A stretch of 64,000 nt of DNA from Eledone cirrhosa (lineage: Eukaryota): contig OZ024743.1 in assembly GCA_964016885.1 (NCBI GenBank), forward strand, positions 182,032,001 to 182,096,000. Direction: 5' to 3'. The notes beneath the pieces are model-generated. The model saw only the letters and a program-made list of their open reading frames with translations, had not been told where the DNA came from and did not search any database. Made by a program: the position numbers and the translations under genes. Below, in pieces: positions 1 through 62,771 of this stretch (positions are counted from its first letter, which is position 1; each line of letters opens with the position of its first letter).

Positions 1-1970
1 TACAACAACACCACCATCAACAACAACACCAGCTACTACAACTACAACAACACCAACACCACCATCAACAACAACAACAGCTACTACAACTACAACTACA
101 ACACCAACAACACCACCATCAACAACAACACCAGCTACTACAACTACAACTACAACTACAACAACACCAACACCACCATCAACAACAACACCAGCTACTA
201 CAACTACAACTACAACAACACCAACACCACCATCAACAACAACACCAGCTACTACAACTACAACTACAACAACACCAACACCACCATCAACAACAACACC
301 AGCTACTACAACTACAACTACAACACCAACACCACCACCATCAACAACAACACCAGCTACTACAACTACAACTACAACAACACCAACACCACCATCAACA
401 ACAACACCAGCTACTACAACTACAACTACAACAACACCAACAACACCACCATCAACAACAACAACAGCTACTACAACTACAACTACAACTACAACACCAA
501 CAACACCACCATCAACAACAACACCAGCTACTACAACTACAACTACAACTACAACACCAACAACACCACCATCAACAACAACACCAGCTACTACAACTAC
601 AACTACAACAACAACACCACCATCAACAACAACACCAGCTACTACAACTACAACTACAACTACAACAACACCATCAACAACAACACCAGCTACTACAACT
701 ACAACTACAACAACACCAACACCACCATCAACAACAACACCAGCTACTACAACTACAACTACTACAACACCAACACCACCATTAACAACAACAACAGCTA
801 CTACAACTGCAACAACAACACCAACACCACCATCAACAACAACACCAGCTACTACAACTACAACTACAACACCAACACCACCATCAACAACAACACCAGC
901 TACTACAACTACAACTACAACACCAACAACACCACCATCAACAACAACAACAGCTACTACAACTACAACTGCAACAACACCAACACCACCATCAACAACA
1001 ACACCAGCTACTACAACTACAACTACAACACCAACACCACCACCATCAACAACAACACCAGCTACTACAACTACAACTACAACACCAACACCACCATCAA
1101 CAACAACACCAGCTACTACAACTACAACTACAACACCAACACCACCACCATCAACAACAACACCAGCTACTACAACTACAACTACAACACCAACACCACC
1201 ACCATCAACAACAACACCAGCTACTACAACTACAACTACAACACCAACACCACCATCAACAACAACACCAGCTACTACAACTACAACTACAACAACACCA
1301 ACACCACCATCAACAACAACAACACCAGCTACTACAACTACAACTACAACAACACCAACACCACCATCAACAACAACACCAGCTACTACAACTACAACTA
1401 CAACACCAACACCACCATCAACAACAACACCAGCTACTACAACTACAACTACAACTACAACACCACCAACACCACCATCAACAACAACAACAGCTACTAC
1501 AACTACAACACCAACAACACCAACAACACCAACAACACCAACAACACCACCATCAACAACAACACCAGCTACTACAACTACAACTACAACTACAACTACA
1601 ATACCAACACCACCATCAACAACAACACCAGCTACTACAACTACAACTACAACTACAACTACAACACCAACACCACCATCAACAACAACACCAGCTACTA
1701 CAACTACAACTACAACTACAACTACAACACCAACACCACCATCAACAACAACACCAGCTACTACAACTACAACTACAACACCAACAACACCACCATCAAC
1801 AACAACACCAGCTACTACAACTACAACTACAACAACACCAACACCACCATCAACAACAACAACACCAGCTACTACAACTACAACTACAACAACACCAACA
1901 CCACCATCAACAACAACACCAGCTACTACAACTACAACTACAACACCAACAACAACAATAACAACAACAT
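1..1970. repeat. Triplet-based compound minisatellite (~42-51 bp unit, ACA/ACT/CCA/GCT)
   Basis: Unit caccaccatcaacaacaacaccagctactacaactacaactacaa is repeated with indels in multiples of 3. It runs off the window start. Confidence 0.95.
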
Positions 1971-5377: not shown

Positions 5378-8300
5378 CCCACACTTAGCAATGAAGACTT
5401 CTGGTGACCTTGATCCTAAGACGACATCCCTACTCACCACCATCGACACCCCGTAGCAGTGGAGACTTCCGGTGTTTTAGCCCTAGGACGACATCCCTAC
5501 TCACCACCATCGACATCCTCCACCTGTGCAGTGAAGACTTCCGGTGTCCTTATCCCTAGGACGACATCCCTACTCACCACCATCGACATCTCCCCTCCTG
5601 TGCAGTGGAGACTTCCAATGTCCTTAGCCGTAGGACGACATCCCTACTCACCACCATCGACATCCTCCACCTGTGCAGTGAAGACTTCCGGTGTCCTTAT
5701 CCCTAGGACGACATCCCTACTCACCACCATCGACATCTCCCCTCCTGTGCAGTGGAGACTTCCGGTGTCCTTAGCCCTAGGACGACATCCCTACTCACCA
5801 CCATCGACATCCTCCACCTGTGCAGTGAAGACTTCCGGTGTCCTTATCCCTAGGACGACATCCCTACTCACCACCATCGACATCTCCCCTCCTGTGCAGT
5901 GGAGACTTCCGGTGTCCTTAGCCCTAGGACGACATCCCTACTCACCACCATCGACATCCCTCCCTGTGCAGTGGAGACTTCCGGTGTCCTTAGCCCTAGG
6001 ACGACATCCCTACTCACCACCATCGACATCCCCCCCCCTGTGCAGTGGAGACTTCCTAGGACGACATCCCTACTCACCACCATCGACATCTCACCCCCTG
6101 TGCAGTGGAGACTTCCGGTGTCCTTAGCCCTAGGACGACATCCCTACTCACAACCATCGACATCTCCCCTCCTGTGCAGTGGAGACTTCCGGTGTCCTTA
6201 GCCCAAGGACGACATCCCTACTCACCACCATCGACATCCCCCCCTCTGTGCAGTGTTGACTTCCGGTGTCCTTAGCCCTAGGACGACATCCCTACTCACC
6301 ACCATCGACACCCCCCCTCCTGTGCAGTGGAGACTTCCGGTGTTTTAGCCCTAGGACGACATCCCTACTCACCACCATCGACATCCTCCCCCTGTGCAGT
6401 GAAGACTTCCGGTGTCCTTAGCCCTAGGACGACATCCCTACTCACCACCATCGACATCCCCCCTGTGCAGTGGAGACTTCCGGTGTCCTTAGCCCTAGGA
6501 CGACATCCCTACTCACCACCTTCGACATCCCCCCTCCCCGTGCAATAGAGACTTCCGGTGTCCTTAGCCCTAGGACGACATCCCTACTCACCACCATCGA
6601 CATCCCCCCTCCCCGTGCAATAGAGACTTCCGGTGTCCTTAACCCTAGGACGACATCCCTACTCACCACCATCGACATCTCCCCTCCCCGTGCAGTGGAG
6701 ACTTCCGGTGTCCTTAGCCCTAGGAAGACATCCCTACTCACCACCATCGACATCTCCCCTCCCCGTGCAATAGAGACTTCCGGTGTCCTTAGCCCTAGGA
6801 CGACATCCCTACTCACCACCATCGACATCCCCCCTCCCCGTGCAATAGAGACTTCCGGTGTCCTTAACCCTAGGACGACATCCCTACTCACCACCATCGA
6901 CATCTCCCCTCCTGTGCAGTGGAGACTTCCGGTGTCCTAGCCCTAGGACGACATCCCTACTCACCACCATCGACATCCCCCCCTGTGTAGTGGAGACTTC
7001 CGGTGTCCTTAGCCCTAGGACGACATCCCTACTCACCACCATCGACATCCCCCCCCCCCTGTGCCGTGGAGACTTCCGGTGTCCTTAGCCCTAGGACGAC
7101 ATCCCTACTCACCACCATCGACATCCCCCCCCTCTGTGCAGTGTTGACTTCCGGTGTCCTTAGCCCTAGGACGACATCCCTACTCACCACCATCGACACC
7201 CCCCCTCCTGTGCAGTGGAGACTTCCGGTGTTTTAGCCCTAGGACGACATCCCTACTCACCACCATCGACATCCTCCCCCTGTGCAGTGAAGACTTCCGG
7301 TGTCCTTAGCCCTAGGACGACATCCCTACTCACCACCATCGACATCCCCCCTCCCCCCTGTGCAGTGGAGACTTCCGGTATCTTTAGCCGTAGGACGACA
7401 TCCCTACTCACCACCATCGACATCCCCCCCTGTGCAGTGGAGACATCCGGTGTCCTTAGCCCTAGGACGACATCCCTACTCACCACCATCGACATCCCCC
7501 TCTCCCCTGTGCAGTGGAGACTTCCGGTGTCCTTAGCCCTAGGACGACATCCCTACTCACCACCATCGACATCTCCCCACCTGTGCAGTGGAGACTTCCG
7601 GTGTCCTTAGCCCTAGGACGACATCCCTACTCACCACCATCGACATCCCCCCTCCCCCCTGTGCAGTGGAGACTTCCGGTATCCTTAGCCCTAGGACGAC
7701 ATCCCTACTAACCACCATCGACATCTCCCCACCTGTGCAGTGGAGACTTCCGGTGTCCTTAGCCCTAGGACGACATCCCTACTCACAACCATCGACATCC
7801 CCCTCTCCCCTGTGCAGTGGAGACTTCCGGTGTCCTTAGCCCTTGGACGACATCCCTACTCACCACCATCGACATCCCCCTCTCCCCTGTGCAATAGAGA
7901 CTTCCGGTGTCCTTAGCCCTAGGACGACATCCCTACTCACCACCTTCGACATCCCCCCTCCCCGTGCAATAGAGACTTCCGGTGTCCTTAGCCCTAGGAC
8001 GACATCCCTACTCACCACCATCGACATCCCCCCTCCCCGTGCAATAGAGACTTCCGGTGTCCTTAGCCCTAGGAAGACATCCCTACTCACCACCATCGAC
8101 ATCTCCCCTCCTGTGCAGTGGAGACTTCCGGTGTCCTTAGCCCTAGGACGACATCCCTACTCACCACCATCGACATCCCCCCCCCCCCTGTGCAGTGGAG
8201 ACTTCCAGTGTCCTTAGCCCTAGGAAGACATCCCTACTCACCACCATCGACATCCCCCCCTGTGCAGTGGAGACTTCCGGTGTCCTTAGCCCTAGGAAGA

Positions 8301-9132
8301 CATCCCTACTCACCACCATCGACATCTCCCCTCCTGTGCAGTGGAGACTTCCGGTGTCCTTAGCCCTAGGACGACATCCCTACTCACCACCATCGACATC
8401 CCCCTCTCCCCTGTGCAGTGGAGACTTCCGGTGTCCTTAACCCTAGGAAGACATCCCTACTCACCACCATCGACATCTCCCCTCCTGTGCAGTGAAGACT
8501 TCCGGTGTCCTAGCCCTAGAACGACATCCCTACTCACCACCATCGATATCGCCCCCTGTGCAGTAGAGACTTCCGGTGTCCTTAGCCCTAGGACGACATC
8601 CCTACTCACCACCTTCGACATCCCCCCTCCCCGTGCAATAGAGACTTCCGGTGTCCTTAGCCCTAGGACGACATCCCTACTAACCACCATCGACATCTCC
8701 CCTCCTGTGCAGTGGAGACTTCCGGTGTCCTTAGCCCTAGGACGACATCCCTACTCACCACCATCGACATCCCCCCTCCCCGTGCAATAGAGACTTCCGG
8801 TGTCCTTAGCCCTAGGACGACATCCCTACTCACCACCATCGACATCTCCCCTCCCCGTGCAGTGGAGACTTCCGGTGTCCTTAGCCCTAGGACGACATCC
8901 CTACTCACCACCATCGACATCCCCCCCTCCCTGTGCAGTGGAGACTTCCGGTGTCCTTAGCCCTAGGACGACATCCCTACTCACCACCATCGACATCCCT
9001 CCCCCCCTGTGCTGTGGAGACTTCCGGTGTCCTTAGCCCTAGGACGACATCCCTACTCACCACCATCGACCCGGAGTTGGTTACCCACAGGTGTGAGCCT
9101 CGCAAGATGGAATGGCTCTTCCAACACGTCTC
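5378..9132 (+). repeat. ~74-bp minisatellite (roughly 50 units) derived from the 3' end of a CRE-like RLE LINE
   Basis: Unit gtgcagtggagacttccggtgtccttagccctaggacgacatccctactcaccaccatcgacatc(C)n translates as CAVETSGVLSPRTTSLLTTI. The last unit continues as DPELVTHRCEPRKMEWLFQHVS, resembling the P.AVET.G..GP...LL..I...EP...WLFQR.S C-terminus of CRE-clade elements. Confidence 0.85.
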
Positions 9133-15263: not shown

Positions 15264-15555
15264 CCACACACACACGTTCCACACACACACACCTTCCTCA
15301 CACACACATTCCACACACACGTTCCACACACACACACACACACACACACGTTCCGCACATACGTTCCACACACATGTTCCACACACACACACATCCCTCG
15401 GTTTCTATTATATTTTACGTTATATTTTTACGTTTATAGGCATTTTTATGAACCACTTTCCAACGTTCGCAGTTTTTCACTCTTCGCGGGTGCTCTAGGA
15501 ACGTAACCCCTCGTGAATACCGCGAACACTGCGAATACAACTGTATATGTATGTA

Positions 15556-15800
15556 TGCATGTATGTATGTTTCTCGTTCTCTTAATGTCGAGTACATTTT
15601 TTACCACCTTCCTGGTGACAAGGTTGTAAAAGAAAAGAAATTGTCATCCTTGAATCGCTAGAATGTTTTGGAAATTTGGATGATTCCATTTGTAGTCCGT
15701 GAATTAGGGGGCTGCGCTCTTTTTCCACAAATCCAAGTTCAGTCATACTTTGGTCCAAATGTGTTGATATATAACTTGTAGCTCCAATAATGATGGGTAT
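15556..15800 (-). mobile_element. 3' fragment of R4/Dong-like LINE family 2
   Basis: Reverse complement matches 28515-28765 (IPIIIGAT...; attcaaggatgacaatttcttttctttt). Both ends abut CATA repeats. Confidence 0.8.
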
Positions 15801-17362
15801 GTATGTGTATATGTATATATGTATATATATATATAAATATTAAGGCCAGTTACTACAACGGTGCCATACCAGGTACGTACGTTTCGTTGGCCCTGAGAAC
15901 CAACTTATTCGTGTGTGTGTGTGTGCGCGCGCGCATGAGCTCACTCCTGCCCCTCGGGAATCCTTATTATGAGCCGTAAATACGTACATAGTCTCACATA
16001 TACATGTATACATATATATATACACGCACATTTATATACATATACATAAACACATAATTGCACAGACACACACGTGTGTGTGTGGGGGGGGTGATGCATA
16101 TATGGTGTTGGAAACCGAATTAAAGCTAATTTATTAAAAATGAAATTCCAATAGGTTTGTTTTTTTAATTTTCCGACTCTCTTTTCTGTTTATTAGTAAA
16201 ACTATAGAAGACTTCATTTGAGCACGAGCTTCATGCGTAGTGTTTATGAAGTTCCAGTCAGACAATATTTTATTTCAAACAATAGTTGACGCCAGCCAGG
16301 ATTAACGACCGATGTTCATAAAAATGAGGTGGATGATAATATAGATAAGATTTTAAATAACTTCAGCTTAAGTGTTGAGCTCTAAAATATAGCGGTTTCC
16401 AGAAATTGATGTTGTCTTTTAATAGAACGAAATTTAATGGGATCTTGTTTTGTTTTGTTTTGTTTTATTTTGTTTTTTAATTCTTTATTGCCTGGCAAGA
16501 CACTTAATCTGAGAATGTTTGTTGAAACTGAAGTATTTATATCATGGAGAAATTATTTTTATTATTTAAAGCACACTTAAAATCGGGATGTTAGCAGCCC
16601 GTCTGTGGAAGGAGCCCCTCAAGGTGTGTGGCTATTGCAGCGTGTGTCGCAGGCCATTGTCTGCGGATATGCCTTTGCCATTTTGTCCTCGAGACGCAGC
16701 TGAAACACGACCCAACCTAGGCACAGAGCCTGTCACCGTCTCCCCCTCACTTTCTTCCGTGTCCAAATAGTTCTTGCTCTTTCCCTCCTTTTCCTCTGAT
16801 TTATGGCATTTATAGTCCTTTCCTCTACTCTCCTATACAGCCAAATCTGATCTTCTTTACCCTTTCACCACTTTTAGCTTTTTTTTTATATATTTCCATC
16901 ATTGTATAACTTCTGTCTGTAAAATATAGTTGACATAATGTTTATATATAACATAAATATAAATATAAATCAGTAATTTTTCTGGGTTGTCTCTGTTGAT
17001 ATTTTTTTTTTAAAAATGAATTAATGGTTTAGTTTACATATTGAGACCCCAACCAATCCTATTTATTTTATAACTTATGGGATTTCTAGTAATGTAATTT
17101 TGGTCATGTATAATGTTTTTTAATGCATAAAGAAAATAAACTGTCGCAGGAATGTTACAACTTAAAATAAAATTTCGTCGCGGAGATAATTTAGCAAAAT
17201 TTAATAAGCGTGGTGAAGGCGGGGTCGAGATGCGGGAGTATGTAAAACACTGTATTTTTTTGGTACCTTTTACAGACTTGCCGACCTTAAAAAATCCAAA
17301 CGTGGAGTACCATGAGAGTGCTCCAAAACGGGGAGAAACGAGTAAAAATTGGAAGATTTTAC

Positions 17363-22743: not shown

Positions 22744-22815
22744 TGTATGAGACAATACAACATAATCTTCCCATATATACGTATATGGGAAGATTATGTT
22801 GTATTGTCTCATACA
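22744..22815. repeat. Perfect 72-bp hairpin (34-bp arms, tacg loop)
   Basis: tgtatgagacaatacaacataatcttcccatata-tacg-tatatgggaagattatgttgtattgtctcataca. Confidence 0.9.
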
Positions 22816-22823
22816 CCATACAT

Positions 22824-23149
22824 GGTGGCTGCCAACTCGTTTTCGAGCACGGCCACTACTTTATATCCATGTAGGAGAACCCCTACCGATGCGCTGAACG
22901 AATGTGACTTTTTAGTCCAGCCAGCGACAAGTGCAGAGAGATCTCCACATATAAAGCAATGCCTGTGCCGTGAAGCTTTTATAGTGAGCAAAGGCACTGC
23001 ACAAAGCCAGTCCCACTCTCTTAACCAAGATGATATTTACCAAAAAGAAGAACAAGTCAACATCATTGGATACCATCAGGGTTGCAGGTGTTATACAGAG
23101 TTTTCCTTCTCCTAGAATTCTGCCTTAACAAAGGCTAAGGGGTCATCTC
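22824..23149 (-). mobile_element. Truncated and internally deleted copy of the RTE-derived bipartite element
   Basis: Matches 27090-27495 with an internal deletion; flanked by CATA repeats. Confidence 0.85.
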
Positions 23150-23293
23150 ATACATACATACACACATACATACATACATACATACATACATACATACATA
23201 CATACAACCATACACACATACACACACACATACATACATACATACATACATACATACATACATACATACATACATACATACATACATACATAC

Positions 23294-26200
23294 AAAGACA
23301 GTCAACGCGATCAGTCGCATATTTTGGCGTGGGAGACTATTTATTAAATTTAAGATGAATACTATCTCCGACAGTAATGCCACAACTACAGTCAGGTTGA
23401 ATAACTGGTTATTCTTCTAACTATCCCTTCTGAAGACACCTTTTATTCGAATTCGTAGAGATATCCGACTAAATACATAATTCATTTTACAAGGATTTGC
23501 TACAAACAGCATGGCTGAACACAACATCAACAAAAAAATTTAGGAAGTATCGAAGACAAATAACAAAGAAGGTAATCAAACTTTATTCCGTTGTAGCTAC
23601 AGAAGAAACCGAAATTATAAATCGCATTTGTCTTGGAGTTGCGAACTTAATAATGATTTATTTAATTGTTATAAAATGGCAAAAAAACAATCCCTCCATT
23701 GGATTGGCTATATGAATAGAATGAAGCTACACTGGGACAAAATGCACCCAGAGCTAAATTATTTCACAGCGAAACAATTACGCCAACAAGCGACGTTTGT
23801 TGAACGTAAAAATAAGATAAATATTATTAATTGTAAGTCCCCCACAACAAACATGTTATCAACAACACGTGCTACAGGTCGCCATGCTACTAGACTTTCT
23901 AGCAGCCAGGTCGAACAGCGCCTTGAAACAACTATGCCTGTAAGAAACTTGACACCACCTGTACCATCTAAGTCTACCTCGAATGCTGGAGAAAACACTA
24001 TCGATAATAATAATAATCGAAGAAATAATAATAATAATCGAATAAATGTGACACCACGTGTACCATCCGAGTCTACCTCGACTGTTGTGAAAAATACTAT
24101 CGATAATGATAATCAAAAGTATAAATAATTGAAAATTTCCCTCAACGAAATTTTCCAGAGAGAAATTAACTCATGTATAAATATCTCTCTTGCTGAACGT
24201 GTTAAAACGACAATGGTGAATAAAAAACCAAATAATGAAATACTACGTGTTATTGACGAAATAGGGGATGAATATTTACGACGGATAAAAACCCCAACAT
24301 TTTGGCAAATCAACGCCTGTTTATATGCCTTAGCAATGACAGTGAAGCATTATCTTGGTGATAGCAGAGATATTAACAAGAACAAAACACCACCAAAAAT
24401 ACCATCATATATAACTAAAATAGAAAAAAAGAGTGCTGACCTACGAAAAAACATAGGATATGTGACAATGCTCCTTACATGCAAACAAGCACAAAAAAAC
24501 CTCACTCCTCACCAACAAAGAGTGAAAAATAAAATAGAGACGTGATAGGAAAACTCCAAGATAAGAAAACACCAGGAAGAGACATGATTGTCGGCTACTG
24601 GTACAAACAACTAATATTCTATCGGAGGTATCTTACTGACCTCTACCAACAAGTTCTTAAGGGAGATACACTTATACCAGAATGGTTGACATTAGCACAA
24701 ACGTTACTGGTCCCCAAGAACAAAGACACCCACTTGGCAAAAAACTACCGACCCATTGCATGCCAGAACCTGATGTATAAGATGTATACAGCCTGCCTGA
24801 ACCTATTCCTCCAAGATCACAGTGAAAATAATAACATCATCACAGATGAACAAGCAGCTGGAAAGAAAGGGGTTTGGGGATGTGCTGAACAACTCCTAAT
24901 CAACAAAACTGCGATGTCGGAGGTGCGACAACTTAGGAGGAATATGACTACAGTTTGGCTGGACTACAGGAAAGCTTTCGATTCTGTTCCCCACTCTTGG
25001 ATGATAGAGGCCCTCCAACTTGCTAAAGTCCCAGACATTATTGTCAGAGCCATGGAGAGGCTGTCTTCTTCTTGGGCTACTATCCTAAGGTTAAAGACAG
25101 AGAGGGAAGACTCTATTTTCACTGATAAAATAAAATATTGCAGAGGTATATTTCAGGGGGACAGTCTCTCTGTGATATTGTTCATCTTGTCATTAAACCC
25201 CTTGTCCTTTCTGTTCAAGAAATGTGAGGGATACATCATTGGCTCACAGGAGGACAGAAATACGAACCTAACCCATAATTTCTTTGTGGACGATCTGAAA
25301 CTCTATGCCAAGAACATGGATGGGATGAAGAAAAATCTTGACCTGGTTACAACGTTCTCAAATATATAGGAATGGAGTTTGGCCAAGATAAATGCTCATA
25401 CATGACTGTAAAGCGGGGAAAAACAACAACCCAATCTAACAACATTGTCATCAATAGGCCTAACTGTTTCACCGATATCTGATGAAGACTGCTACAGATA
25501 CCTGGGGATAGATGAGAACATATCCTATAATGGTATCTGTAATAAAGAACGCGTAACTAGGGAATACTACACCCGATTAAGAAAGATCTGGTCATCGGAA
25601 CTCTCTGCGCAAAACAAAACAGTGGCTCACAATGTGTTTGCTGTGCCTGTCCTAACACCAACGATAGACGAAATCCGAGCAGTTGATGTTGGAACTCGAA
25701 AAATACTGAACAACACCCGAAACTTCCACATCAACAGTGACATAGACCGCCTTTACTTGAAACGTAAGCAGGGAGGCAGAGGCCTAACATCAGTCCAGAC
25801 AACATTTGAATGTCGCATCATATCTCTCCGACAACATCTACGAACCTCGAAGCGTAGGAGCCCGTTTCTCGAGCAAGTCTATCTGCATGAAACAGATAAG
25901 GTCATGAGAGTTGGGAAGGAATTCCTTGAGAGATATTCCCTGTGTGATAATCAAAAACTCACACCCAGGGATGTCGCTCAGCAGTATCGCAGTGAATCCA
26001 TGGATGAAAAACTGCATGCCTATCAGCAAAAAATCATGCATGGATATGTTGCCAGGAAGCTCCAGAGTGAGAGTAATATAGATAAGGAAAGTAGTCTATC
26101 TTGGACCAACAACCGCTATATTAGCTCTCACTTTGAAGGATACGCTTTTGCAATCCAGGAACAGGAGATTAGCACGAAATACCTGATTCACAAAAGAGAT

Positions 26201-27058
26201 AGGGATGCAGGCAAAACACCTAGATGTGATAACAAGTGCAGACTCTGCAGAACTAATATCGAGGATATCACCCATGTCATCAGCAGCTGTCCAAAGATGT
26301 CATCGCGCTACTATCTACCTATGAGGCATGATGTAGTGGCCAAAACACTGTACAATGCAGTTCGTAAAAAAGATAGCCCCGATAATAAACACATTAAAAG
26401 CTACAACAATGTGGAAGACATCCATGTATATAATATGAAAGAGTACTGGTGGAATGTTCCAGTAAAAACCCCAATAAAATGCAGGCATAACAGACCAGAT
26501 AGTATGATATGGGACAGAGAGAAGAAAACATGCACAGTAGTGGAAATTAGCTGCCCAGCAGATGCCAATATAATATCAAAGATTAGTGAAAAGGAGAATA
26601 TTTATGCAGAACTGATGAGAAATCTGCAGATACTCCACCCTGATTACACCTTCAGATTTATGCCTGTGATTATTGGGGCACTGGGATATGTTAGTAACTG
26701 CCTCAATACAAATCTTGAGAAGCTAGGCTTCACAGGAACAGAAAGAACACAACTAGTTAGGAAATTACAAGTACAATCCATTAATGGAACAGTAAAAATA
26801 TGAAAAACATTCCAAAAATTTTGCATCTAGTAACTGCATATACACATGTCCAGATACAAAGTATACACACATGCACACATACAACTCAAAACTTACACAT
26901 CCACACATACAATAACATCCATATCTACACATGCATGCATACATACATATCTACCTAGTTGATGTTGTGTAAATTCTAATGAGAAAGTCTTGTGTCTATG
27001 TTAGAAACCAACTCTCTCTCTATTGGTAAAACTTTGTGAAATTATAAAACCAGAAGAA
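23294..27058 (+). mobile_element. R4/Dong-clade non-LTR retrotransposon (RT + CCHC + restriction-like endonuclease), disrupted
   Basis: N-terminus GYMNRMKLHW..KQLRQQ; RT motifs NYRPIAC, LDYRKAFDSVPH, GIFQGDSLS, FVDDLKLY; CRLC..EDITHVISSC zinc knuckle, RHD, RPD..VEISCP. Frameshifts near 25367 and 25445 and an apparent deletion near 24542. (CATA)n on both sides. Confidence 0.92.
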
Positions 27059-27089
27059 CATACATACATACATACATACATACATACAT

Positions 27090-27685
27090 GGTGGCTGCCA
27101 ACTCGTTTTCGAGTACGGCCACTACCTTATATCCATGTAGGAGAACCCATACCGATGCGCTGAACGAGTGTGACTTTTTAGTCCAGTTAGCGACTTGAAA
27201 ACTCTGGTACAAACACTACACTTGCGACAATTATTGACACATAGTGCTCGGCCCATGGTACCATGTGACGACAAGTGCAGAGAGATCTCCAGATATAAAG
27301 CAATGCCTGTGCCGTGAAGCTTTTATAGTGAGCAAAGGCACTGCACAAAGCCAGTCCCACTCTCTTAACCAAGATGATATTTACCAAAAAGAATAACAAG
27401 TCAACATCATTGGATACCATCAGGGTTGCAGGTGTTATATCAGAGTTTTCCTTCTCCTAGAATTCTGCCTTGACAAAGACTAAGGGGTCATCTCTCCCGG
27501 TGATTTTGGATGGCCATTGACTCTTAAGAGCTCCTTCGCCCTTTGACAGGTTTTGTTTTTAGTCCTGCAGGATGTCCAAAGTCACCCTCCTCACCAAGAA
27601 ACCTTGGTGGGGTCGCCAACGACCCGACCATGGGACAGGTTGTACTGGAATACATGTTACCAGTAGCACCAACTAGTGACCTGAC
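27090..27685 (-). mobile_element. ~600-bp non-autonomous RTE-derived (bipartite) element with a (TATG)n tail
   Basis: 5' part carries the RTE-5'UTR-like ctaggagaaggaaaactctg; 3' part encodes a C2H2-like CSVCTRVFKSLAGLKSHTRSAH*. Near-identical copy at 38774-39382. Confidence 0.75.
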
Positions 27686-27774
27686 ACATACATACACACA
27701 TACATACATACATACATACATACATACATACATACATACATACATACATACATACATACATACATACATACATA

Positions 27775-28767
27775 GGTTTATGTGCATGAAAAAAAAATCA
27801 TTAGAATAGCGACTGATCTGGAGGAGAGATATGGAATAAAGCCTGATATAAATCTCTCACCCAGAGAAATCGGAAGATCCTATTCAATGTTCAAACAAGA
27901 TAAAAAAATTGACCAATTTACAGAAAAAGTTGTGCATGGATACTTGAGGCGTAAAACACAGACCATAGAGGGGATAAACCACTCAAAAAGCCTGGCATGG
28001 AGTTCCGACAAGTTTATGATATCACACCTTGAGGGATATCTCTATGCAATACAGGAACAAGAACTCCCTACCAAATATCTGCTGCACAAAAGAGGAGGGC
28101 CAGCAGCTGACAATAAATGTAGACTATGTAAAACAAAGATCGAGGATGTAAGCCACAGTGTTGCCAGCTGCGAAAAAATGTCATCTCGCTACTACCTCCC
28201 CATGAGACACGATAGGATAGCTAGAACCATCTGGAACGCACTTCGGAAAACAAAATTAACAAATGAGGAGGAATATATTGAGACAGATGGCACTAAGGAA
28301 TACTGGTGGAACCTGAAAATAAAAACTGCCACCAAATTAAAGCACAACCGGCCTGATATTGTTGTTTGGGACCACACATTGAAAACGTGTTCTGTTGTGG
28401 AGATCAGCTGCCCACTTGATGTAAACGTTGTCAGAAAAATACAGGAGAAGGAGGACATCTACGGACCATTGATGAGGAGTTTACAAATCCAGTATCCAAG
28501 ATACACCTTTAGCTTCATACCCATCATTATTGGAGCTACGGGTTATATACCAACCCGCTTGGACCAAAGTATGACTGAACTTGCATTTGCGGACAAAAAG
28601 CGCAGCTCCCTAATTCATAGTCTACAAATGGTTGCGATAGCTGGCACCTTCAAAATTTGCAAAACATTCTTGCGATTCAAGGGATGACAATTTCTTTTCT
28701 TTTACAACCTTGCCACCAGGAAGGTGGCCCTCAAAAAAAATATACTCGAAATTAAGAGAAAGAGATA
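27775..28767 (+). mobile_element. 5'-truncated R4/Dong-like LINE family 2 (RLE domain, 301-aa open frame)
   Basis: AIQEQ, CRLCKTKIEDVSHSVASC, RHD, HNRPDIVVWD..VEISCP; flanked by (CATA)n. Confidence 0.9.
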
Positions 28768-28861
28768 TACACATACATACATACATACATACATACATAC
28801 ATACATACATACATACATACATACATACATACATACATACATACATACATACATACATACG

Positions 28862-29515
28862 TATGTAGAGTACGTTATTGGTTCACAGGAGGTCAAAAAC
28901 CCAAAGCTAGTAAATAACTTATTTGTGGATGACATGAAACTTTATGTCAGAGAATATAAATGGTGTGAAGGAAATCAGTGACCCTCAATGAGTTTGCTGA
29001 AGTGGAAATAACAGCGAAATATCTGATTCACAAAAGAGGTAGGGATGCAGGCAAAACACCTAGATGTGACAACAAACGCAGACTCTGCGGAATAAACATC
29101 GAAGATGTCACCCAAAGTTACAGTGATGAGGAGGACATATACGTACATAATATGAAAGAGTACTGGTGGAATGTTCCAGTCAAAACCCCAATAAAATGCA
29201 AACATAACAGACCAGACATAGTGATATGGGACAGCGAAAATCAGCTGCCCAGCAGATGTTAATATAATATTAAAGATTAGAGAAAAGTAGAACATTTATG
29301 AGGAATCTACAGATACTCCACCCTAGCTATACATTTAGATTTGTAATTGTAATCATTGGGGCTTTGGGATATGTTACTAACTGCCTCAGTTCAAGTTTTA
29401 AGAAGCTGGGCTTCACAGAACCAGGAAAATCATGGCTAGTCAGGAAGTTACAAGTACAATCCATTAATGGAACTTTAAAAATAGGTAAACAAAAAACATT
29501 CCAACAATTATGATG
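28862..29515 (+). mobile_element. Multiply deleted derivative of Dong-like family 1
   Basis: Joined pieces: NLFVDDMKLY, KYLIHKRGRDAGKTPRCDNK, KEYWWNVPVKTPIKCKHNRPD, LVRKLQVQSINGT. Confidence 0.85.
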
Positions 29516-35032: not shown

Positions 35033-35786
35033 CCACATGTAAATACATATATGTTCGCGGACGTACGTCAACCAAAACACAAAGTACACATATACACACA
35101 CCCTACATACGTACGAACCCGCATACTCACACAGACGCAAAACTCACGTATACACATAACCAAATGCACATGTACCAGTATATATAATATGTACGCCAAT
35201 AACATATACAAGCAAATATACGTACGAGAAATATACGTACCTTCACAAAACATACAGGTAATATATACTTACTTATACGAATACGTAATGGTATTAACAT
35301 AACATATATTTAGCTACCACATCAAGACATAAAATATCCGCGTATAGTTCGTACTATCCGTTAGGGTATAATGAATGTGGGGCTGTAATACAAGAAAGTT
35401 TTGTGCAATTTATGTTTACAAGCCGAAATTGCCTCAGATTTTTTGTTTAAGATGTGGTCTTTGGCGTAGAGTATTTCCAGGGCCTCGGCGGCGCAGAGGT
35501 CACATGGTCTTTTATTTCCGTTATACCATCTAGCCTTAGCTAGGATCTCCCAGTGTAACTTATATTCGGTGTGGTTGTCTTTTAGACTCCAGATATAAGC
35601 TGAAAGTGACGTCATATTCCTTCTTAAAGGGTTAAGAAAAGAATGGGTATGTATGTAAAGACGCTGCTTGAATCTATTGGCGGTTAACCCTATGAAGGCC
35701 CTACGGGACGTGGGTGTTTCAACCTTACATTTGTAGACAATGTTATCGAGCCCTCTTTGGATTTTAGTCTTCAAATTTATTATTAT

Positions 35787-35790
<4 letters not shown>
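34196..35790 (-). mobile_element. 5'-truncated copy of the PLE family at 60642 (GIY-YIG end, 3'UTR, pLTR)
   Basis: NIVYKCKV..AFIGLTANRFKQR..CDLC..LNKKSE. 35744-35790 is an inverted copy of the family's extreme 3' tail (63797-63845). Confidence 0.9.
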
Positions 35791-35822
<32 letters not shown>

Positions 35823-35824
<2 letters not shown>

Positions 35825-36012
35825 GCGGTGGATTGGCAGTATCGGTAAGGGTCGGACGCCATGCTTTGAAGCATAGAGTTACCTCCCTTTATGATCTGAG
35901 TTCAAATCCCGCCGAGGTTAACTTTGCCTTTCATCCTTACGGGGTCGATAAAATAAAGTACCAGTAATGCACTGGAATAATTGCTGGCCTTGTGCCAAAA
36001 GTAGAAACAATT
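35823..36012 (+). mobile_element. SINE family B
   Basis: Near-identical to 14297-14480. Confidence 0.85.
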
Positions 36013-38429: not shown

Positions 38430-38699
38430 CGAGAAAGTTCCCCTCCGAGGCACACGCCTAGGCAAGATTTGTTTGTGGCAGACCAGCAGTCACCCATGCA
38501 TACCAGTCTCCTCCTCTCCACGCCTTCGAGAAGGGCAATGGCTGATACAGCTTGGCACCAGTGACGCCGCAACAGCTGAGTAAACATGAGCCACGTGAAA
38601 TAAAGTGTCTTGTTCAAGGACACAACGCAAAGCCCGGTCCAAGAATCGAACTAACAACATCGCGATTGTATGCCCGACGCGGTAACCAGTAAGCCATGC
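38430..38699 (-). mobile_element. tRNA-derived SINE family A variant
   Basis: Minus strand gttcgattc ... tgtgtccttgaacaagacactttatttcacg. Confidence 0.7.
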
Positions 38700-38773
38700 A
38701 TACATACATACATACATACATACATACATACATACATACATACATACATACATACATACATACATACATACAT

Positions 38774-39382
38774 GGTGACTGCCAACTCGTTTTCGAGTAC
38801 GGCCACTACTTTATATCCATGTAGGAGAACCCCTACCGATGCGCTGAACGAGTGTGACTTTTTAGTCCAGCCAGCGACTTGAAAACTCTGGTACAAACAC
38901 TACACTTGCGACAATTATTGACACATAGTGCTGGGCCCATGGTACCATGTGACGACAAGTGCAGAGAGATCTCCAGATATAAAGCAATGCCTGTGCCGTG
39001 AAGCTTTTATAGTGAGCAAAGGCACTGCACAAAGCCAGTCCCACTCTCTTAACCAAGATGATATTTACCAAAAAGAATAACAAGTCAACATCATTGGATA
39101 CCATCAGGGTTGCAGGTGTTATATCAGAGTTTTCCTTCTCCTAGAATTCTGCCTTGACAAAGGCTAAGGGGTCATCTCTCCCGGTGATTTTGGATGGCCA
39201 TTGACCCTTAAGAGCTCCTTTGCCCTTTGACAGGTTTTGTTTTTAGTCCTGCAGGATGTCCAAAGTCACCCTCCTCACCAAGAAACCTTGGTGGGGTTGC
39301 CAGTTTAGTCGCCAACGACCCGACCATGGGACAGGTTGTACTGGACTACATGTTACCAGTAGCACCAACCCGGTGACCTGAC
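38774..39382 (-). mobile_element. Full copy of the RTE-derived bipartite element within (CATA)n
   Basis: Near-identical to 27090-27685; (CATA)n on both sides. Confidence 0.85.
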
Positions 39383-39439
39383 ATACATTTATACATACAT
39401 ACATACATACATACATACATACATACATACATACATACA

Positions 39440-39469
<30 letters not shown>

Positions 39470-39470
<1 letters not shown>

Positions 39471-39672
39471 GTATAACTGAACTTGGATTTATGGACAAAG
39501 AGCGCAGCTCCCTAATTCATAGTCTACAAATGGCTGCGATAGCTGGCACCTTCAAAATTTGCAAAACATTCTTGCGATTCAAGGGATGACAATTTCTTTT
39601 CTTCTACAATCTTGCCACCAGGAAGGTGGCCGGTCAAAAATATACTCGAAATTAAGATAAAAGAGAGAATAT
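39470..39672 (+). mobile_element. 3' tip of Dong-like family 2
   Basis: Matches 28570-28767; lies between two (CATA)n tracts. Confidence 0.85.
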
Positions 39673-40734
39673 ACATACATATATACATACATACATACAT
39701 ACATGCATACATACATACATACATACATACATACATACATACATACATACATACATACATACATACATACATACATACATACAAATATACATACATTTAT
39801 ATATACATACATATGTGTGTGAGAGAGAGTATGTATATATGTTTATGAGGGCGTTTGTGTGTATGTATGTGTGTATACGTAAATGAGTATAGTAAGAATA
39901 CACCGACAGATTTTTATCTAGTCTCTCTCTCTCTCAATATCTCTCTCACTCCCATACTCCCTCTCCCAATCTCTCTCTCAATGTCTCTCCTTCTCAATCT
40001 CTCTCTCTCTCATTAGCTCTCTTTCTCAATCTCTCTCTCCCAATCTCTCTCCCAATCTTTCTCTCTTCCTATCTCTCCCTCTCTCCTCTCTCTCTCTCCT
40101 CTCTCTCTCCCCGTTCTCTCCCCTCCCCTTCTCTCTCCCTCTTCCTCTCTCTCTCCCACTGACCCTCTCTTTCGCTCTCCCCCTATCACTACATCTCCCT
40201 ATCTCTCCCTCTCCCTCTCTCTCACAACATCTCATGTACTTTTTACCTCACGATTCTACAACCTTTTCCTCTCACCTCATCTTGTTTCTGTAATGACTCA
40301 TCTTACCAAATAAGAAAACTTCATTTCTTTTCTTTCGTATATGTATATATATATATGTGTGTGTGTGTATGTCTAGGTATATGTGTGTGTCTCTGTGTGT
40401 CTGTATGCGTGTGTATGTATCTGTGTGTGTGTATCTGTGTATCTTAGTGTGTTGTGGTGTGTGTGTGTGTTGTGTGCATGTATGTGTTGTGTATGTTTCT
40501 GTATGTGTTGTGTATGTGTGTTGTGTGTGTATGTCGGGGAAGAAGGATTATTATATTTTATTTCATTCAAGTATCTGTATCTAAATATACAATGGTGTGT
40601 CCAGTGTAAAGGCTTCCACCGTAGACTCCGAAGATAGGTCGACCAACAAGAATTACTAAAACATCTGAAAAGCAATGAACCGTCTGGCAATGTTCCTCTT
40701 ACACCCAATCAGGGACAGAAACAACAACTACTTT

Positions 40735-41426: not shown

Positions 41427-43685
<2,259 letters not shown>

Positions 43686-44104: not shown

Positions 44105-46322
44105 AAGGAACCAAAAATAATCAACATATCGGCAAAAAAACTAACACAACAGGAAATAAAATTCCTAGAAAATGGACTGAAATTCACACCCACTCCAAAA
44201 GCAGATCAAGCCGACCTTATAAAAGACACAGAAGATTTTTGTTTAAAATTATGTCTATGAGAATTCTTCCAGGGTGTAGAATACGAGGAAGAATCACTAG
44301 TAAGAAACAAAAAGAACTTCAGGCCTCCGTTAAATAGAGACAAACACCTGGAGGACTACATAACCTACCTCCGACGATCGGCACAGTCAAATATTGCAGA
44401 GACGAAACACAAATACAACATCCCTACAGACCAACTGCAAGCACTAAACAAACTACAAAAAGACTCCTCAATAATCATAAAAGAAGCGGACAAAGGTGGA
44501 GCAATCATGATCATGGACAAAAACCACTACAAGGATATGGTCCTAGAACAGTTGAATTACGAGGATTTTTACAGAAAAATCAGCAAAAACGAAGAAAGAA
44601 AATCGATGATTAAAGTAGGCAAACTGACGACCAAGTACCAAAACAACCTCACACTAAAGGAAATCAATTACTTAACCAACTTCGAAATGAAAACCAGCAA
44701 TTTCTATGGTTTACCGAGGGTTCACAAATCCAGAGAAATCCAAAACAACATAAAAGGCAAAAATACATCATATGTTGAAGTGCCAAAACCGACAGATTTA
44801 AAATTACGCCCAATTGTTGCTGGTCTAGCCTCAAGCACACAACGTCTAAGCAACCTATTAGACATCGTACTGAAACCCTTATGTAAAAAAAGTGCCAAGC
44901 TTCGTCAGAGATGATATGGAATTCCTGAACTATATCCCCAGAAAGTACACCAAGAAACAATCTTAGTGAACTTTGACGCAACAAGCTTATATACTAACAT
45001 CCCACACGACTTAGGAGTTGAAGCTGTTGACTTCTGGATTACAAAACACCCAGACTACATTTTAAAGAGATTCCCCAAAAAATTTATTTTGGAAGGACTC
45101 AAACTAGTACTGGAGAACAACCACTTCCTTTTTTATAACGAACTATATTTACAAATAAAAGGAACACCCATGGGCACCAAAGTGGCCCCAACATATGCAA
45201 CACTCGTTATGAGCCACCTGGAGGCAAAATTACATTCCAAACTGCAGGAAACATTCAGTCATGACTTCGCTACCTAAATTAATCACAACTGGAAACGCTA
45301 CCTAGACGACTGCTTTATCTTCTGGAATAGAAGCCAAGAAGACCTGCAAAGATTCCATTCCATCATAAACAATCTTCACGAAGAAATAAAATTCACATGG
45401 AATGTAATAAAAAGGAACTACCGTTTCTGGATATCTTTATCATTAAGGAAGGGGAAAATATCAAAACGGACTTATTTTACAAACCAACAGACACACACCA
45501 ATACTTGAATTTCCGTTCAGCACACCCATCACATACCAAAAGGAACATTCCTTTTAACATGGCAAGACGCATCTGCACCATAGTAACACACCCCACACTA
45601 CAGGAAAAAAGATTATATGAACTAAAAGAGTTCCTTAAAAGACAAGAATATCCGGTGAACCTCATCAACACAGCCATCTCCAAAGCCCAGAACATCCCAG
45701 TGACAACACTGAGAAAAACAAAGCAACAAAATTGAATGGAAAAAACAGTCATCCCTTTTGTCACCACTCACAATCCAAGGAACTTCAACATTGTAAAAGC
45801 CGCCAAACAATATCTCCCGATTCTCCAGCAGTCCCCTAAAATGAATGCACTCATAAAAGACGCACAAATTATATATAGTAGACGCCAACCTAAAGAAACT
45901 GCTTACCAAGGCAAAATTTACGTCTAATAATAAAGCAATGCAAGTTAAGAAATGCGGGGACCCTCGATGCGAAACTTGCGAACACATTGAAGAGGGTGGA
46001 CAAATCTTCTTTAAAAACAACCAGTCTTTCGCAGTTAATGCAAACATGAATTGCAAAACAAAAAAACTTGATTTACTGTGCAACCTGCCCTCAATGTAAA
46101 GAATACTGCATTGGTGAAACCGGAACGGGTCTACATGACAGAGTTCGAGTACATAAACAACTAATTAGAGACCCCTCTATCAGAAACACCACATGCAGTG
46201 AAAGGGAAATTTCACAATTTTCCCCTTCTTTAAGATATGGTCGGACAACGAACATTTCCGAAAATATAAAGAAGAATTCTTTATTAGAAAATACAAACCA
46301 CTACAGAACACAAAAAAAGTGA
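44105..46322 (+). pseudogene. Near full-length degenerate PLE ORF (Neptune-like RT + GIY-YIG)
   Basis: GLKFTPTP, KEADKGG, FYGLPRVHK, LRPIV, FDATSLYTNIP, GTPMGTKVAPTYA, RYLDD, LPFLD, CGDPRCETC, IYCATCPQC..CIGETG; several stops and frameshifts. Confidence 0.9.
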
Positions 46323-47259: not shown

Positions 47260-48170
<911 letters not shown>

Positions 48171-60156: not shown

Positions 60157-60641
60157 TTTATTAAAATAACAGATTAAAGTTTAAGCAAAGAATCGCTGCT
60201 TTCACCCTTAACGGGATCTTCTGAAACTAACAAAGTCAATCTGTAAACGCAGAACTGGATATTTCAAAAAACGTTGCAACCGGAGGAAGACAGGAAGACG
60301 ATACTTTGGTTCGTGGTAACGTTCGCTGGCAAAGAACGGGAAAAAACGAATAATACGTCATTAATAGGAGCGGTGAAAAACAATTACGTGCAAAGACAGA
60401 ACCACGTTTATGGTATAAAGGAGGTCGTAGACTAATCTTCTCTTAGGTGGTGGATAGAGACGTTCTCTGGCAATGAACGAAAAAAAGGAAGATAATAAGT
60501 CATATGTGGAGCGTGGAGAACAATAGCACGCAAAGACAAAACCACGTAAATGGTATAGCAGAAGTCGTAAACTAAAATTCTAACTAGGAGACCAAATGAA
60601 TCTCCGCTACCGGTTGAGCACTCTACTGACTTATATTCATC

Positions 60642-62771
60642 ATGCAGAAACAACATCTGAATATTTCTACAAAGAACATACCCGTACCAAGCAGGAAAAC
60701 ATACCTAAAACTCCTGATACAGAAAACAGACGCGTTCATTAAAAGGTTGCGTTGGCGTGCCTTTTATTTCGATAATCCGCGTAAAGCAGACAACAAACAG
60801 GATAAATTTGGATTTAAAACCTATAATAACCCTCCGTGGAACCCAGCATTGCTACCCTTCGAAAATGATGTCTTGGAACTCATTCGGAGTATCAAATTTC
60901 GGAATAGGAGCAATTCCTTCCAGCAAGACCTGAAGAATAGAATTCGTTCTATCAAGGATTCTAGCGCCGTGCACGTCCATTCCGACAAAACTGGCAACCT
61001 ATATCAAGTGGAGCGCAGTACTTACCATCAACTACTACATAATGCTGTAACTAAGGATTACCGTAAAACTAATCGGTGCGTCATCAATGAAATCAACGAT
61101 GCTGGGTTTAAAATCACATCTGATCTCAACATCCTGGACCGGACCGAACCTCTGGACCCTATCTCTCCCCACTTTACCCTGAAGGATCACAAATCCAATT
61201 TTCCGAACAACCCATCTATTCGGCTTATTAACCCTACGAAGTCCGATTTAGGTAGACTTAGTAAAACGATTCTTGATAGAATTATACTTGAAATTAGAAG
61301 TTTGGCCCCTCTCGCACTGTGGAACAATTCTTTCGCGGTGATTGATTGGTTCAACGGCATATGTAACAAGGAACATTGCCGTTTTATCCAATTCGACATC
61401 AACAATTACTACTCCTCCATCACTTTACCACTTCTCCTTAGAGCTATCAATTTCGCTAAAATACTCACAGTGGTTAAGGATTTCGAAGTTGATGTCAACC
61501 TTAATGCCCGAAAGTCGGTGATTAATTTCGACGACTCTATTTGGATTAAAAAATCCAATAGTACCCCATTCGACGTGAGTATGGGCGCCAGTGACTCTGC
61601 GGAGGTTACTGATCTTATTGGCCTTTTCCTTCTTTTCTCTATCAAGGACGAATTCCCCAACGCGGGCGGTGGTTTGTACCGTGACGATGGTCTTTTGACC
61701 ATGACTAAGTGCGGACCTCGTGCTTGCGACAGGTTCAGAAAAGAACTCACAGCCTTCTTTAAAGGCTTCAACCTCTCTATACAGGTTGAGGCCAATCTCT
61801 CGGTCGTTAATTACCTCGACGTTACCCTCAATTTATTGAATGGGTTGTATTACCCGTATAGAAAGCCGAATGATACGCTTAATTACAAAAGTAAGCATTC
61901 CAACCATCCTGCCAGCATAACCAAGAACCTGGTTAGAAACGTTTCGTTGAGGCTTTCCCGTCTTTCCACCAACGAGCGCATTTTCAACGACCATTCCACT
62001 TATTACAATGAAGCTCTTGCTCGAAGTGGATTTGTCGATAAGGTAGCATATACAGAGTACGAAAATAGACCTAGAAGAAATAGATCCCGTCGCATTTGTT
62101 GGTTTAACCCACCATATAATATGGAGGTGGCCACACCATTAGCTAAGATCTTTCTTTCCCTTATTACGAAGCATTTTCCCCCTACACATAAATATAGTAA
62201 AATTTTTAATAGAAATACTATTAAAATTTCTTACTCTACGACTCCTAACCTTGCACATAACATCACAGCTTCAAATTTAGCAAAACTACCTAGCCGTAGG
62301 AACACGTGCAACCCTGTAGTTAGTACTAACTGTAATTGTAGGAATCGGGCTGATTGCCCCCTATCCGGGAAATGCCTCTCTAGTAACATTGTCTACAAAT
62401 GTAAGGTTGTAACACCCACGTCCCGTAGGGCCTGCATAGGGTTAACCGCCAATAGTTTCAAGCAGCGTCTTTACATGCATACCCATTCTTTTCGTTACCC
62501 TCTAAGAAGGAATATGACGTCACTTTCAGCTTATATCTGGAGTCTAAAAGACAACCACACCCAATATAAGTTACACTGGGAGATCCTAGCTAGGGCTAGA
62601 TCGTATAACGGAAATAAACGACCATGTGACCTCTGCGCCGCTGAGGCCCTGGAAATACTCTACGCCACAGACCACATCTTAAACAAAAAATCTGAGGCAA
62701 TTTCGGCTTGTAAACATAAATTGCACAAAACTTTCCTGTATTACAGCCCCACGTTATACCCTAACGGATAG
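60642..62771 (+). CDS. PLE polyprotein: reverse transcriptase + C-terminal GIY-YIG endonuclease (resembles the Hydra-type clade)
   Basis: 709 aa uninterrupted: KNIP.P, DKTGN.Y, FIQFDINNYYSSI, MGASDSAE, LYRDD, NYLDV, CNCR..CPL.GKC, IVYKC..CIGLT..FKQR..H, CDLC..E..LNKKSE. Confidence 0.92.
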   Translation: MQKQHLNISTKNIPVPSRKTYLKLLIQKTDAFIKRLRWRAFYFDNPRKADNKQDKFGFKTYNNPPWNPALLPFENDVLELIRSIKFRNRSNSFQQDLKNRIRSIKDSSAVHVHSDKTGNLYQVERSTYHQLLHNAVTKDYRKTNRCVINEINDAGFKITSDLNILDRTEPLDPISPHFTLKDHKSNFPNNPSIRLINPTKSDLGRLSKTILDRIILEIRSLAPLALWNNSFAVIDWFNGICNKEHCRFIQFDINNYYSSITLPLLLRAINFAKILTVVKDFEVDVNLNARKSVINFDDSIWIKKSNSTPFDVSMGASDSAEVTDLIGLFLLFSIKDEFPNAGGGLYRDDGLLTMTKCGPRACDRFRKELTAFFKGFNLSIQVEANLSVVNYLDVTLNLLNGLYYPYRKPNDTLNYKSKHSNHPASITKNLVRNVSLRLSRLSTNERIFNDHSTYYNEALARSGFVDKVAYTEYENRPRRNRSRRICWFNPPYNMEVATPLAKIFLSLITKHFPPTHKYSKIFNRNTIKISYSTTPNLAHNITASNLAKLPSRRNTCNPVVSTNCNCRNRADCPLSGKCLSSNIVYKCKVVTPTSRRACIGLTANSFKQRLYMHTHSFRYPLRRNMTSLSAYIWSLKDNHTQYKLHWEILARARSYNGNKRPCDLCAAEALEILYATDHILNKKSEAISACKHKLHKTFLYYSPTLYPNG

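What the first reader, a model, noticed from the sequence alone, without database searches (positions are those of the whole stretch)
22824..29515. (CATA)n microsatellite as a shared landing pad for two Dong/R4 families and an RTE-derived element, in opposite orientations
Seen: a 6.7-kb chain of five insertions separated only by (CATA)n tracts (RTE-derived minus, Dong-1 plus, RTE-derived minus, Dong-2 plus, Dong-1 derivative plus). The pattern repeats at 38700-39780 and 15550-15805. All five Dong-type copies read in the CATA sense and all three RTE-derived copies in the TATG sense, although (TA)n, (CA)n and (GA)n are at least as abundant here. Known: R4-clade RLE elements are sequence-specific and Dong targets TAA repeats; RTE elements end in short tandem tails. 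Inference: an RLE endonuclease specific for (CATA)n, which I do not recall being described, plus a feedback loop in which RTE tails create targets that could help explain the microsatellite load.
Basis: partly seen in the sequence, partly recalled or inferred. Interest (0 to 1): 0.72.

Follow-up and report, generated by a model that had tools for sequence, protein, structure and literature searches.

The report
Retrotransposons sharing CATA repeats, opposite strands
Two families of jumping genes in this animal genome sit almost only inside CATA repeats and almost always face the same way, likely because their own machinery picks that repeat instead of the TAA repeat used by their known relatives, while an unrelated jumping gene lands in the same repeats facing the other way and is likely a co-tenant, not the builder of the repeats.

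Summary
Two Dong-like RLE families (48% identical) sit in (CATA)n in one orientation. Evidence: 4,643 of 5,669 family-1 3' ends are followed by AYATACA genome-wide; 56 of 71 truncated 5' junctions and 27 of 28 full-length 5' ends abut CATA (background about 1%); none lay in pure (TA)n, which is 12 times commoner. Two metagenome relatives are flanked by (CATA)n and two by (CTTA)n; they form one branch apart from (TAA)n-flanked relatives. Other Dong-like families of this genome end in (TAA)n (23 of 30). The feedback loop is not supported as written: the RTE elements carry no fixed TATG tail, insert at ATRT, and about half sit in (TA)n. The fifth element is a lone old fossil with no 3' CATA. Whether the enzyme or RNA pairing picks the target is untested. 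No such R4 target was found in the papers searched, but Repbase, Kojima and Fujiwara 2004 and Fell 2025 could not be seen; Waldo (R1 clade) already targets ACAY. This scan noted the same pattern before on other DNA of this genome.

The parts
22824..23149 (-). Short non-coding RTE-related element, 5'-truncated, with a 74-base internal deletion
23149..23294 (+). (CATA)n tract between short element and D1 5' end
23295..27057 (+). D1: near full-length Dong-like RLE LINE (N-terminal helical domain, RT, CCHC knuckle, PD-(D/E)xK nuclease); broken ORF; about 345 bases deleted near 24540
27058..27089 (+). (CATA)n tract shared by the D1 3' end and the short element's 3' end (tail to tail)
27090..27686 (-). 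Full-length (597 bases) short RTE-related element: RTE-like 5' UTR part, C2H2-finger remnant, RTE-like 3' terminus
27686..27774 (+). (CATA)n tract
27775..28770 (+). D2: 5'-truncated copy of a second Dong-like RLE family, 48% amino-acid identity to D1
28771..28860 (+). (CATA)n tract
28861..29512 (+). Old, internally deleted, 3'-truncated D1-like fossil (three pieces, 75-90% to D1); no 3' CATA
38695..39781 (.). Second chain: (CATA)n, short element (minus, 38774-39381), (CATA)n, truncated D2 (plus, 39471-about 39670), (CATA)n
15546..15832 (-). Older D2-like 3' fragment (82%) with CATA-sense flanks on its own strand; no RTE element here

Best explanation
The chain is a stack of independent insertions in (CATA)n: two Dong-like RLE retrotransposon families occupy this repeat in one fixed orientation at thousands of places, likely because their protein recognises and nicks the TATG strand, and RTE-related elements occupy the same tracts in the opposite orientation, likely because they accept only sites that read ATRT in their own sense. 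Shown: both junctions of D1 and D2 lie in CATA-sense repeat; RTE ends are followed by ATGT or ATAT and never by CATA-sense sequence; the CATA families group with CATA- and CTTA-flanked relatives, apart from TAA-flanked ones. Inferred: target-primed reverse transcription from opposite strands. On a (CATA)n tract ATRT occurs on one strand only, which would fix the RTE orientation. Each insertion splits a tract into two that remain targets, and RTE target duplications add roughly 13-26 bases, so stacks grow. The divergent Myb-like N-terminal domain is the likely reader of the repeat (by analogy; untested).
For: 3' ends: 4,643 of 5,669 exact D1 ends genome-wide are followed by AYATACA. In fetched loci 62 of 67 D1 and 37 of 43 D2 ends pass a strict CATA rule; none is TATG or pure TA; background 0.6%. 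5' ends: 27 of 28 full-length D1; 28 of 40 D1 and 28 of 31 D2 truncation points; background about 1%. Sample at fixed positions, 600 kb: 4 of 4 copies have 3' CATA and 3 of 3 visible 5' junctions; (TA)n tracts outnumber (CATA/TATG)n 1,024 to 81. Within-genome control: other Dong-like families (27-29% identical to D1 at the C terminus) end in (TAA)n in 23 of 30 and in CATA in 0 of 30. Other organisms: L233 and L234 have (CATA)n and L231 has (CTTA)n on both sides of 1,150-1,220-aa open frames; L232 has CTTA at its 5' side; all fall in one branch, SH-aLRT 100. RTE side: 57 of 60 short-element ends and 24 of 25 family-B ends start ATGT or ATAT, 0 of 85 CATA-sense. 407 D1 ends have an RTE end tail to tail, about 1.6 expected for random placement; 23 of 96 Dong ends have an opposite-sense RTE end within 250 bases and none a same-sense one.
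Against: No cleavage or insertion assay. 15 of 71 truncated 5' junctions fail the CATA rule, two of them TATG-sense; some of the misses are short CATA runs or internal breaks, about 9 look real. The cut phase cannot be read at 5' junctions, because 39 of 61 overlap the repeat by one or more bases. Most loci were best hits by similarity, so they lean to young copies. The duplication test was inconclusive. The tree is a quick search with a midpoint root and no named reference sequences, and is unresolved inside the tetranucleotide branch. The CTTA target rests on 2 contigs. One TAA-side relative (L268) shows three ATAC units, probably inside its coding region. The autonomous RTE found is a relative (68% and 87% over the shared parts), not the direct parent, of the short element.
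Confidence: 0.7

Rival explanations
1. Targeting is real but set by RNA-DNA pairing: read-through transcripts end in CAUA repeats and prime only where a loosely specific nick exposes a TATG strand. A change of target then needs only a new RNA tail.
For: All 110 Dong 3' flanks examined begin with CATA-type sequence, some only 6-10 bases long. Pairing between RNA 3' end and target is described for R1Bm, R2Ol and RTE elements (PMC6007223, passages). For the RTE elements this route is as likely as enzyme choice.
Against: The target tracks protein lineage across organisms and within this genome. A self-renewing RNA tail could also be inherited by lineage, so this does not exclude it.
Confidence: 0.2
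2. One reading: RTE elements carry (TATG)n tails, and these create the CATA targets that the Dong-like families use.
For: RTE elements are reported to generate microsatellites (PMC2887409, abstract). 407 tail-to-tail pairs. RTE insertions duplicate some target repeat.
Against: No fixed tail: 30 different 12-mers follow 60 short-element ends, and only 14 of 60 begin with three ATGT units. Of 19 young autonomous copies, 10 continue ATAT and 9 ATGT. The RTE's own 5' junctions are also in TATG or TA repeat (75 of 94 pass either rule). About 7 in 100 D1 ends have an RTE end within 40 bases, about a quarter within 250.
Confidence: 0.07
3. No targeting: the elements insert broadly, and the CATA flanks arise afterwards (tail expansion, survival in repeat-rich neutral DNA, or assembly artefact).
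For: The genome is very rich in microsatellites.
Against: Independent truncation points abut CATA in 56 of 71 cases with strand bias, and never the commoner (TA)n. Sister families in the same genome use TAA.
Confidence: 0.03

Closest known systems
Dong, DongAg, DongBg and ostracod Dong (R4 clade)
   Same: One ORF with RT, CCHC knuckle and C-terminal RLE; no N-terminal zinc finger; strand-specific insertion into a microsatellite (PMC7998251 and PMC3812793, passages).
   Different: Described target is (TAA)n; here (CATA)n, and (CTTA)n in relatives. The tetranucleotide elements form their own long branch, about 30-39% identical to TAA-flanked relatives.
WaldoAg1/2 and WaldoFs1 (R1 clade)
   Same: Target ACAY repeats, which include ACAT = CATA (PMC3812793, passage).
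   Different: APE endonuclease, another clade; the shared target would be convergent.
Togen and some HERO families (RLE)
   Same: RLE elements specific for microsatellites; Togen for (TG)n (PMC4640811, passages).
   Different: Other targets; placed near NeSL/HERO. No reference sequence was available to compare.
Bipartite non-autonomous RTE LINEs (RTESINE, WALLSI3, Bov-A)
   Same: Short non-coding element made of RTE 5' and 3' parts (PMC5786205, passages).
   Different: No fixed microsatellite tail here; strong preference for ATRT inside (TA)n/(TATG)n, unlike the T-stretch signature of PMC6007223 (passages).

Membership tests
R4 clade / Dong-like | Single ORF with RT, CCHC knuckle and C-terminal PD-(D/E)xK endonuclease | tested here: met
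   Pfam RVT_1 and weak zf-RVT; CCHC, RHD and RPD..E..K motifs aligned by eye (motif names recalled)
R4 clade / Dong-like | Divergent Myb/SANT-like N-terminal domain, no zinc finger | tested here: inconclusive
   No finger motif; domain aligns with TAA-flanked relatives; three-helix model at residues 54-115; Rap1-Myb cluster at 0.84, a lead only; fold searches gave nothing significant
R4 clade / Dong-like | RT phylogeny inside R4 with named references | tested here: inconclusive
   No named R4, Dong, HERO or NeSL sequence was available; nearest relatives with flanks are mostly TAA-flanked; solved R2 proteins are distant (E about 1e-23)
R4 clade / Dong-like | Sequence-specific insertion seen at both junctions | tested here: met
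Dong in the strict sense | (TAA)n target | tested here: not met
   None of the 110 D1/D2 3' flanks is TAA; all begin CATA-type. Filed as Dong-like, not as Dong.
R4 clade / Dong-like | 5' HDV-like self-cleaving ribozyme (PMC3774820) | tested here: inconclusive
   No Rfam ribozyme match; unremarkable fold
Bipartite non-autonomous RTE LINE | Shares 5' UTR part and 3' terminus with an autonomous APE-RT element; non-coding | tested here: met
   68% over 207 bases and 87% over the last 30 to a 1,246-aa APE-RT-C2H2 element; stops in all three frames
Bipartite non-autonomous RTE LINE | Fixed 3' microsatellite tail | tested here: not met
   30 different 12-mers after 60 ends; at most 2 bases are shared. 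Filed as RTE-related.
Bipartite non-autonomous RTE LINE | Target-site duplications | tested here: inconclusive
   Single clear cases (L013, L015, L390, L378); shuffle test 10 against 5-8
RTE clade | RT phylogeny of the autonomous partner | not tested
   RTE label rests on domain order and recalled motifs
Waldo (R1 clade) | APE endonuclease | tested here: not met
   No APE domain in D1, D2, L231 or L233

The most novel reading that the evidence does not exclude
An undescribed branch of R4-type retrotransposons has moved from three-letter (TAA) to four-letter targets and has switched between CATA and CTTA within the branch by changing its protein's DNA recognition. Intact natural pairs that differ by one target base (L233/L234 against L231), with TAA families as an outgroup, would show which residues set an RLE element's landing site. 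In this genome the branch partitions one repeat by strand with an ATRT-specific RTE.
Probability: 0.4. Interest if true: 0.68.

Novelty: new variant of a known kind. Interest (0 to 1): 0.5.

Why it matters
How RLE retrotransposons change target is a standing question, and these enzymes are being developed as insertion tools (PMC13586686, passages). A set of related intact proteins with TAA, CATA and CTTA targets makes the question directly testable by cleavage assays and domain swaps. It also explains stacked LINE arrays in a microsatellite-rich genome as shared use of existing repeats. It does not explain the genome's microsatellite load.

Tried and rejected
RTE-tail feedback: rejected. Duplication of one composite unit as the source of the second chain: rejected, since the D2 truncation points differ and the short copies differ by about 4%. 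Fifth element as a family: rejected. Statistical test for target duplications: inconclusive for all three families. 5' cut phase: unreadable. Intact D1 or D2 ORF: none among 20 long copies. Direct autonomous parent of the short element: not found among the 150 scored hits or the 30 APE loci. Ribozymes: no Rfam match; the short elements' 5' stem-loops show little covariation (4 of 25 pairs). N-terminal fold searches uninformative. RTE relatives in viral contigs: none. No RNA holder listed. Contigs of other runs break at the repeat and gave no empty alleles; one contig of another organism showed the D1 end running into an RTE end, too little to count. Literature: nine searches showed no R4 or Dong element with a CATA, ATAC, TATG or CTTA target. 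Fell et al. 2025 and Kojima and Fujiwara 2004 are not held, and Repbase is not available; any of them, or their supplements, may list such families.
Full report
Observation. The window lies in a 3.0-Gb animal genome, very rich in microsatellites; by recall this fits an octopus-type genome, which I did not test. The chain is present as described: short element (minus), D1 (plus), short element (minus), D2 (plus), D1-like piece (plus), with (CATA)n at the four inner junctions. D1 and D2 carry RT, a CCHC knuckle and a PD-(D/E)xK nuclease and are 48% identical. The window's D1 is broken and lacks about 345 bases. The fifth element is a lone old fossil without a 3' end or 3' CATA. The second chain is independent, since the D2 truncation points differ. 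The site at 15550-15805 has only a D2-like piece.

Is CATA a target or a tail? I fetched the best 30 of 40 scored hits for each element end, 20 long copies and 60 stretches of 10 kb at fixed positions, and left out the five loci that are the window itself. With a strict rule, 62 of 67 D1 and 37 of 43 D2 3' ends enter CATA-sense repeat. The 11 misses begin with short or imperfect CATA; none is TATG or pure TA; background is 0.6%. Genome-wide, 4,643 of 5,669 exact D1 ends (82%) are followed by AYATACA, about what a few percent decay would leave if all once were. At the 5' side, 27 of 28 full-length D1 starts abut CATA. So do 28 of 40 D1 and 28 of 31 D2 truncation points, against about 1% background; two are TATG-sense and none is pure TA. 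Truncation points are made anew at each insertion, so this repeat cannot come from the element's RNA ends. In the 600-kb sample, 4 of 4 copies have 3' CATA and 3 of 3 visible 5' junctions do, while (TA)n tracts outnumber (CATA/TATG)n 1,024 to 81.

The target follows lineage. Of 80 metagenome loci kept, six are 49-54% identical to D1. L233 and L234 have (CATA)n and L231 has (CTTA)n on both sides of long open frames; L232 has CTTA at its 5' side; L235 and L236 show no flank. Of 43 distant relatives that reach the C terminus, 27 show a downstream repeat: 20 (TAA)n and 7 others, among them one TAAA and one short ATAC run that probably lies inside the coding region; 16 show none. In a quick RT tree of 86 rows, all CATA and CTTA rows fall in one branch of 21 (SH-aLRT 100; 14 rows have no known flank), apart from all 23 TAA-labelled rows. 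The inside of the branch is unresolved, the root is a midpoint, a few TAA labels came from the repeat list, and no named references were available. A lead from earlier scan notes prompted a control: other Dong-like families of this same genome end in (TAA)n in 23 of 30 loci and in CATA in none (3' side only).

The RTE side. The 597-base element is non-coding, with a C2H2-finger remnant. It shares part of its 5' region (68%) and its last 30 bases (87%) with a young autonomous APE-RT element whose copies are mostly over 99% identical. That fits a bipartite non-autonomous RTE LINE (PMC5786205, passages), although the direct parent was not found. It has no fixed tail. After 60 short-element ends from loci not chosen by Dong queries come ATGT 29 times, ATAT 28 and other 3, with 30 different 12-mers and no CATA-sense start. 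Of 20 autonomous copies, 19 had a readable end: 10 ATAT, 9 ATGT. Single clear duplications of 13-26 bases are visible, but a shuffle test was inconclusive (10 against 5-8). So the RTE elements insert at ATRT inside existing (TA)n and (TATG)n. On a CATA tract that word lies on one strand only, which accounts for the opposite orientation. Tail-to-tail pairs are common: 407 genome-wide against about 1.6 for random placement; 23 of 96 Dong ends have an opposite-sense RTE end within 250 bases and none a same-sense one. A null restricted to CATA tracts was not computed.

Mechanism. Shown: both junctions, fixed orientation, link to lineage, absence of an RTE tail. Inferred from the known priming mechanism: the Dong-like protein nicks the TATG strand and the RTE protein the CATA strand; each insertion leaves two usable tracts, so stacks grow. 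The exact cut cannot be read, because 39 of 61 truncated junctions overlap the repeat. Whether protein or RNA pairing picks the site is open; I put protein recognition at 0.7 and RNA pairing at 0.2. The N-terminal domain is modelled as three helices with only a weak Myb lead and no fold match.

What is known. Dong targets are given as (TAA)n in most insects, molluscs and cnidarians (PMC7998251, passages; PMC3812793, passages). The latter lists ACAY for Waldo, an APE element, so the repeat itself is a known target in another clade. Togen and some HERO families target other microsatellites (PMC4640811, passages). Octopus papers report Dong-R4 and RTE families but, in the passages seen, no target (PMC13282606; PMC9115989). 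RTE 3' repeats and site choice are discussed in PMC2887409 (abstract) and PMC6007223 (passages); Dong's ribozyme in PMC3774820 (passages). PMC5035012 and PMC13586686 (passages) added context only. Nine searches showed no R4-type element with a CATA or CTTA target. Fell 2025, a screen of 4,464 genomes, and Kojima and Fujiwara 2004 were not held, Repbase was not available, and no supplements were read, so novelty is not established.

Verdict. A real, strongly supported target variant of a known kind of element, with a wider tetranucleotide branch as its most interesting part. The feedback loop is not supported. The scan has noted the same pattern on other DNA of this genome; those notes are not independent evidence. 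Interest 0.5.

Noticed in passing
window 22745-22814: Perfect palindrome of about 70 bases (z = -14) at the left end of the chain, between a TATG run and a CATA run; possibly a local fold-back duplication. Copy number not checked.
   Followed up: partly
L377-L396 (G000): Very young autonomous RTE-like family with many open frames of about 1,200 aa. Its UTRs carry internal (TG)n, (TTA)n, (TA)n and poly-T runs shared by copies, so it may seed these repeats, including TAA-type targets.
   Followed up: partly
L420-L426 (G000): Young TAA-flanked Dong-like family with 1,216-aa open frames; no intact CATA-family ORF was found among 20 long copies.
   Followed up: partly
L150, L170, L136, L161, L130, L367, L199; window 48094-48152: Several diverged short RTE-related families share a 5' start and stem-loops, and at least four share the 3' motif GCAGCCAYC.
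   Followed up: partly
L006, L009, L033, L060, L085: A few insertions have 5' and 3' flanks in opposite repeat sense, which may be inversions at the insertion site.
   Followed up: no
G000, matches: Tail-to-tail spacers between D1 and RTE ends are mostly multiples of four, often 16 bases and not under 8 in the 100 listed; this may reflect the duplication length or a minimal recognition site.
   Followed up: no
L238, L240, L247, L301: Distant relatives flanked by (TAAA)n, (TAC)n or (CAA)n, hinting at further target shifts or degenerate tracts.
   Followed up: no
window 42283-43482 (-), 44261-45735 (+), 60630-62771 (+), 35361-35888 (-): Penelope-like elements: RT plus GIY-YIG by Pfam for the first, RT for the second; the other two by resemblance only.
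   Followed up: no
window 1-1969 and 5388-9070: A 54-base tandem repeat with a long open frame (possibly a mucin-like exon) and a 74-75-base minisatellite of about 50 copies.
   Followed up: no
window 47260-47830: RTE-like C-terminal fragment on the minus strand, cut by a TATG/TA microsatellite, beside a 60-base tandem repeat.
   Followed up: no
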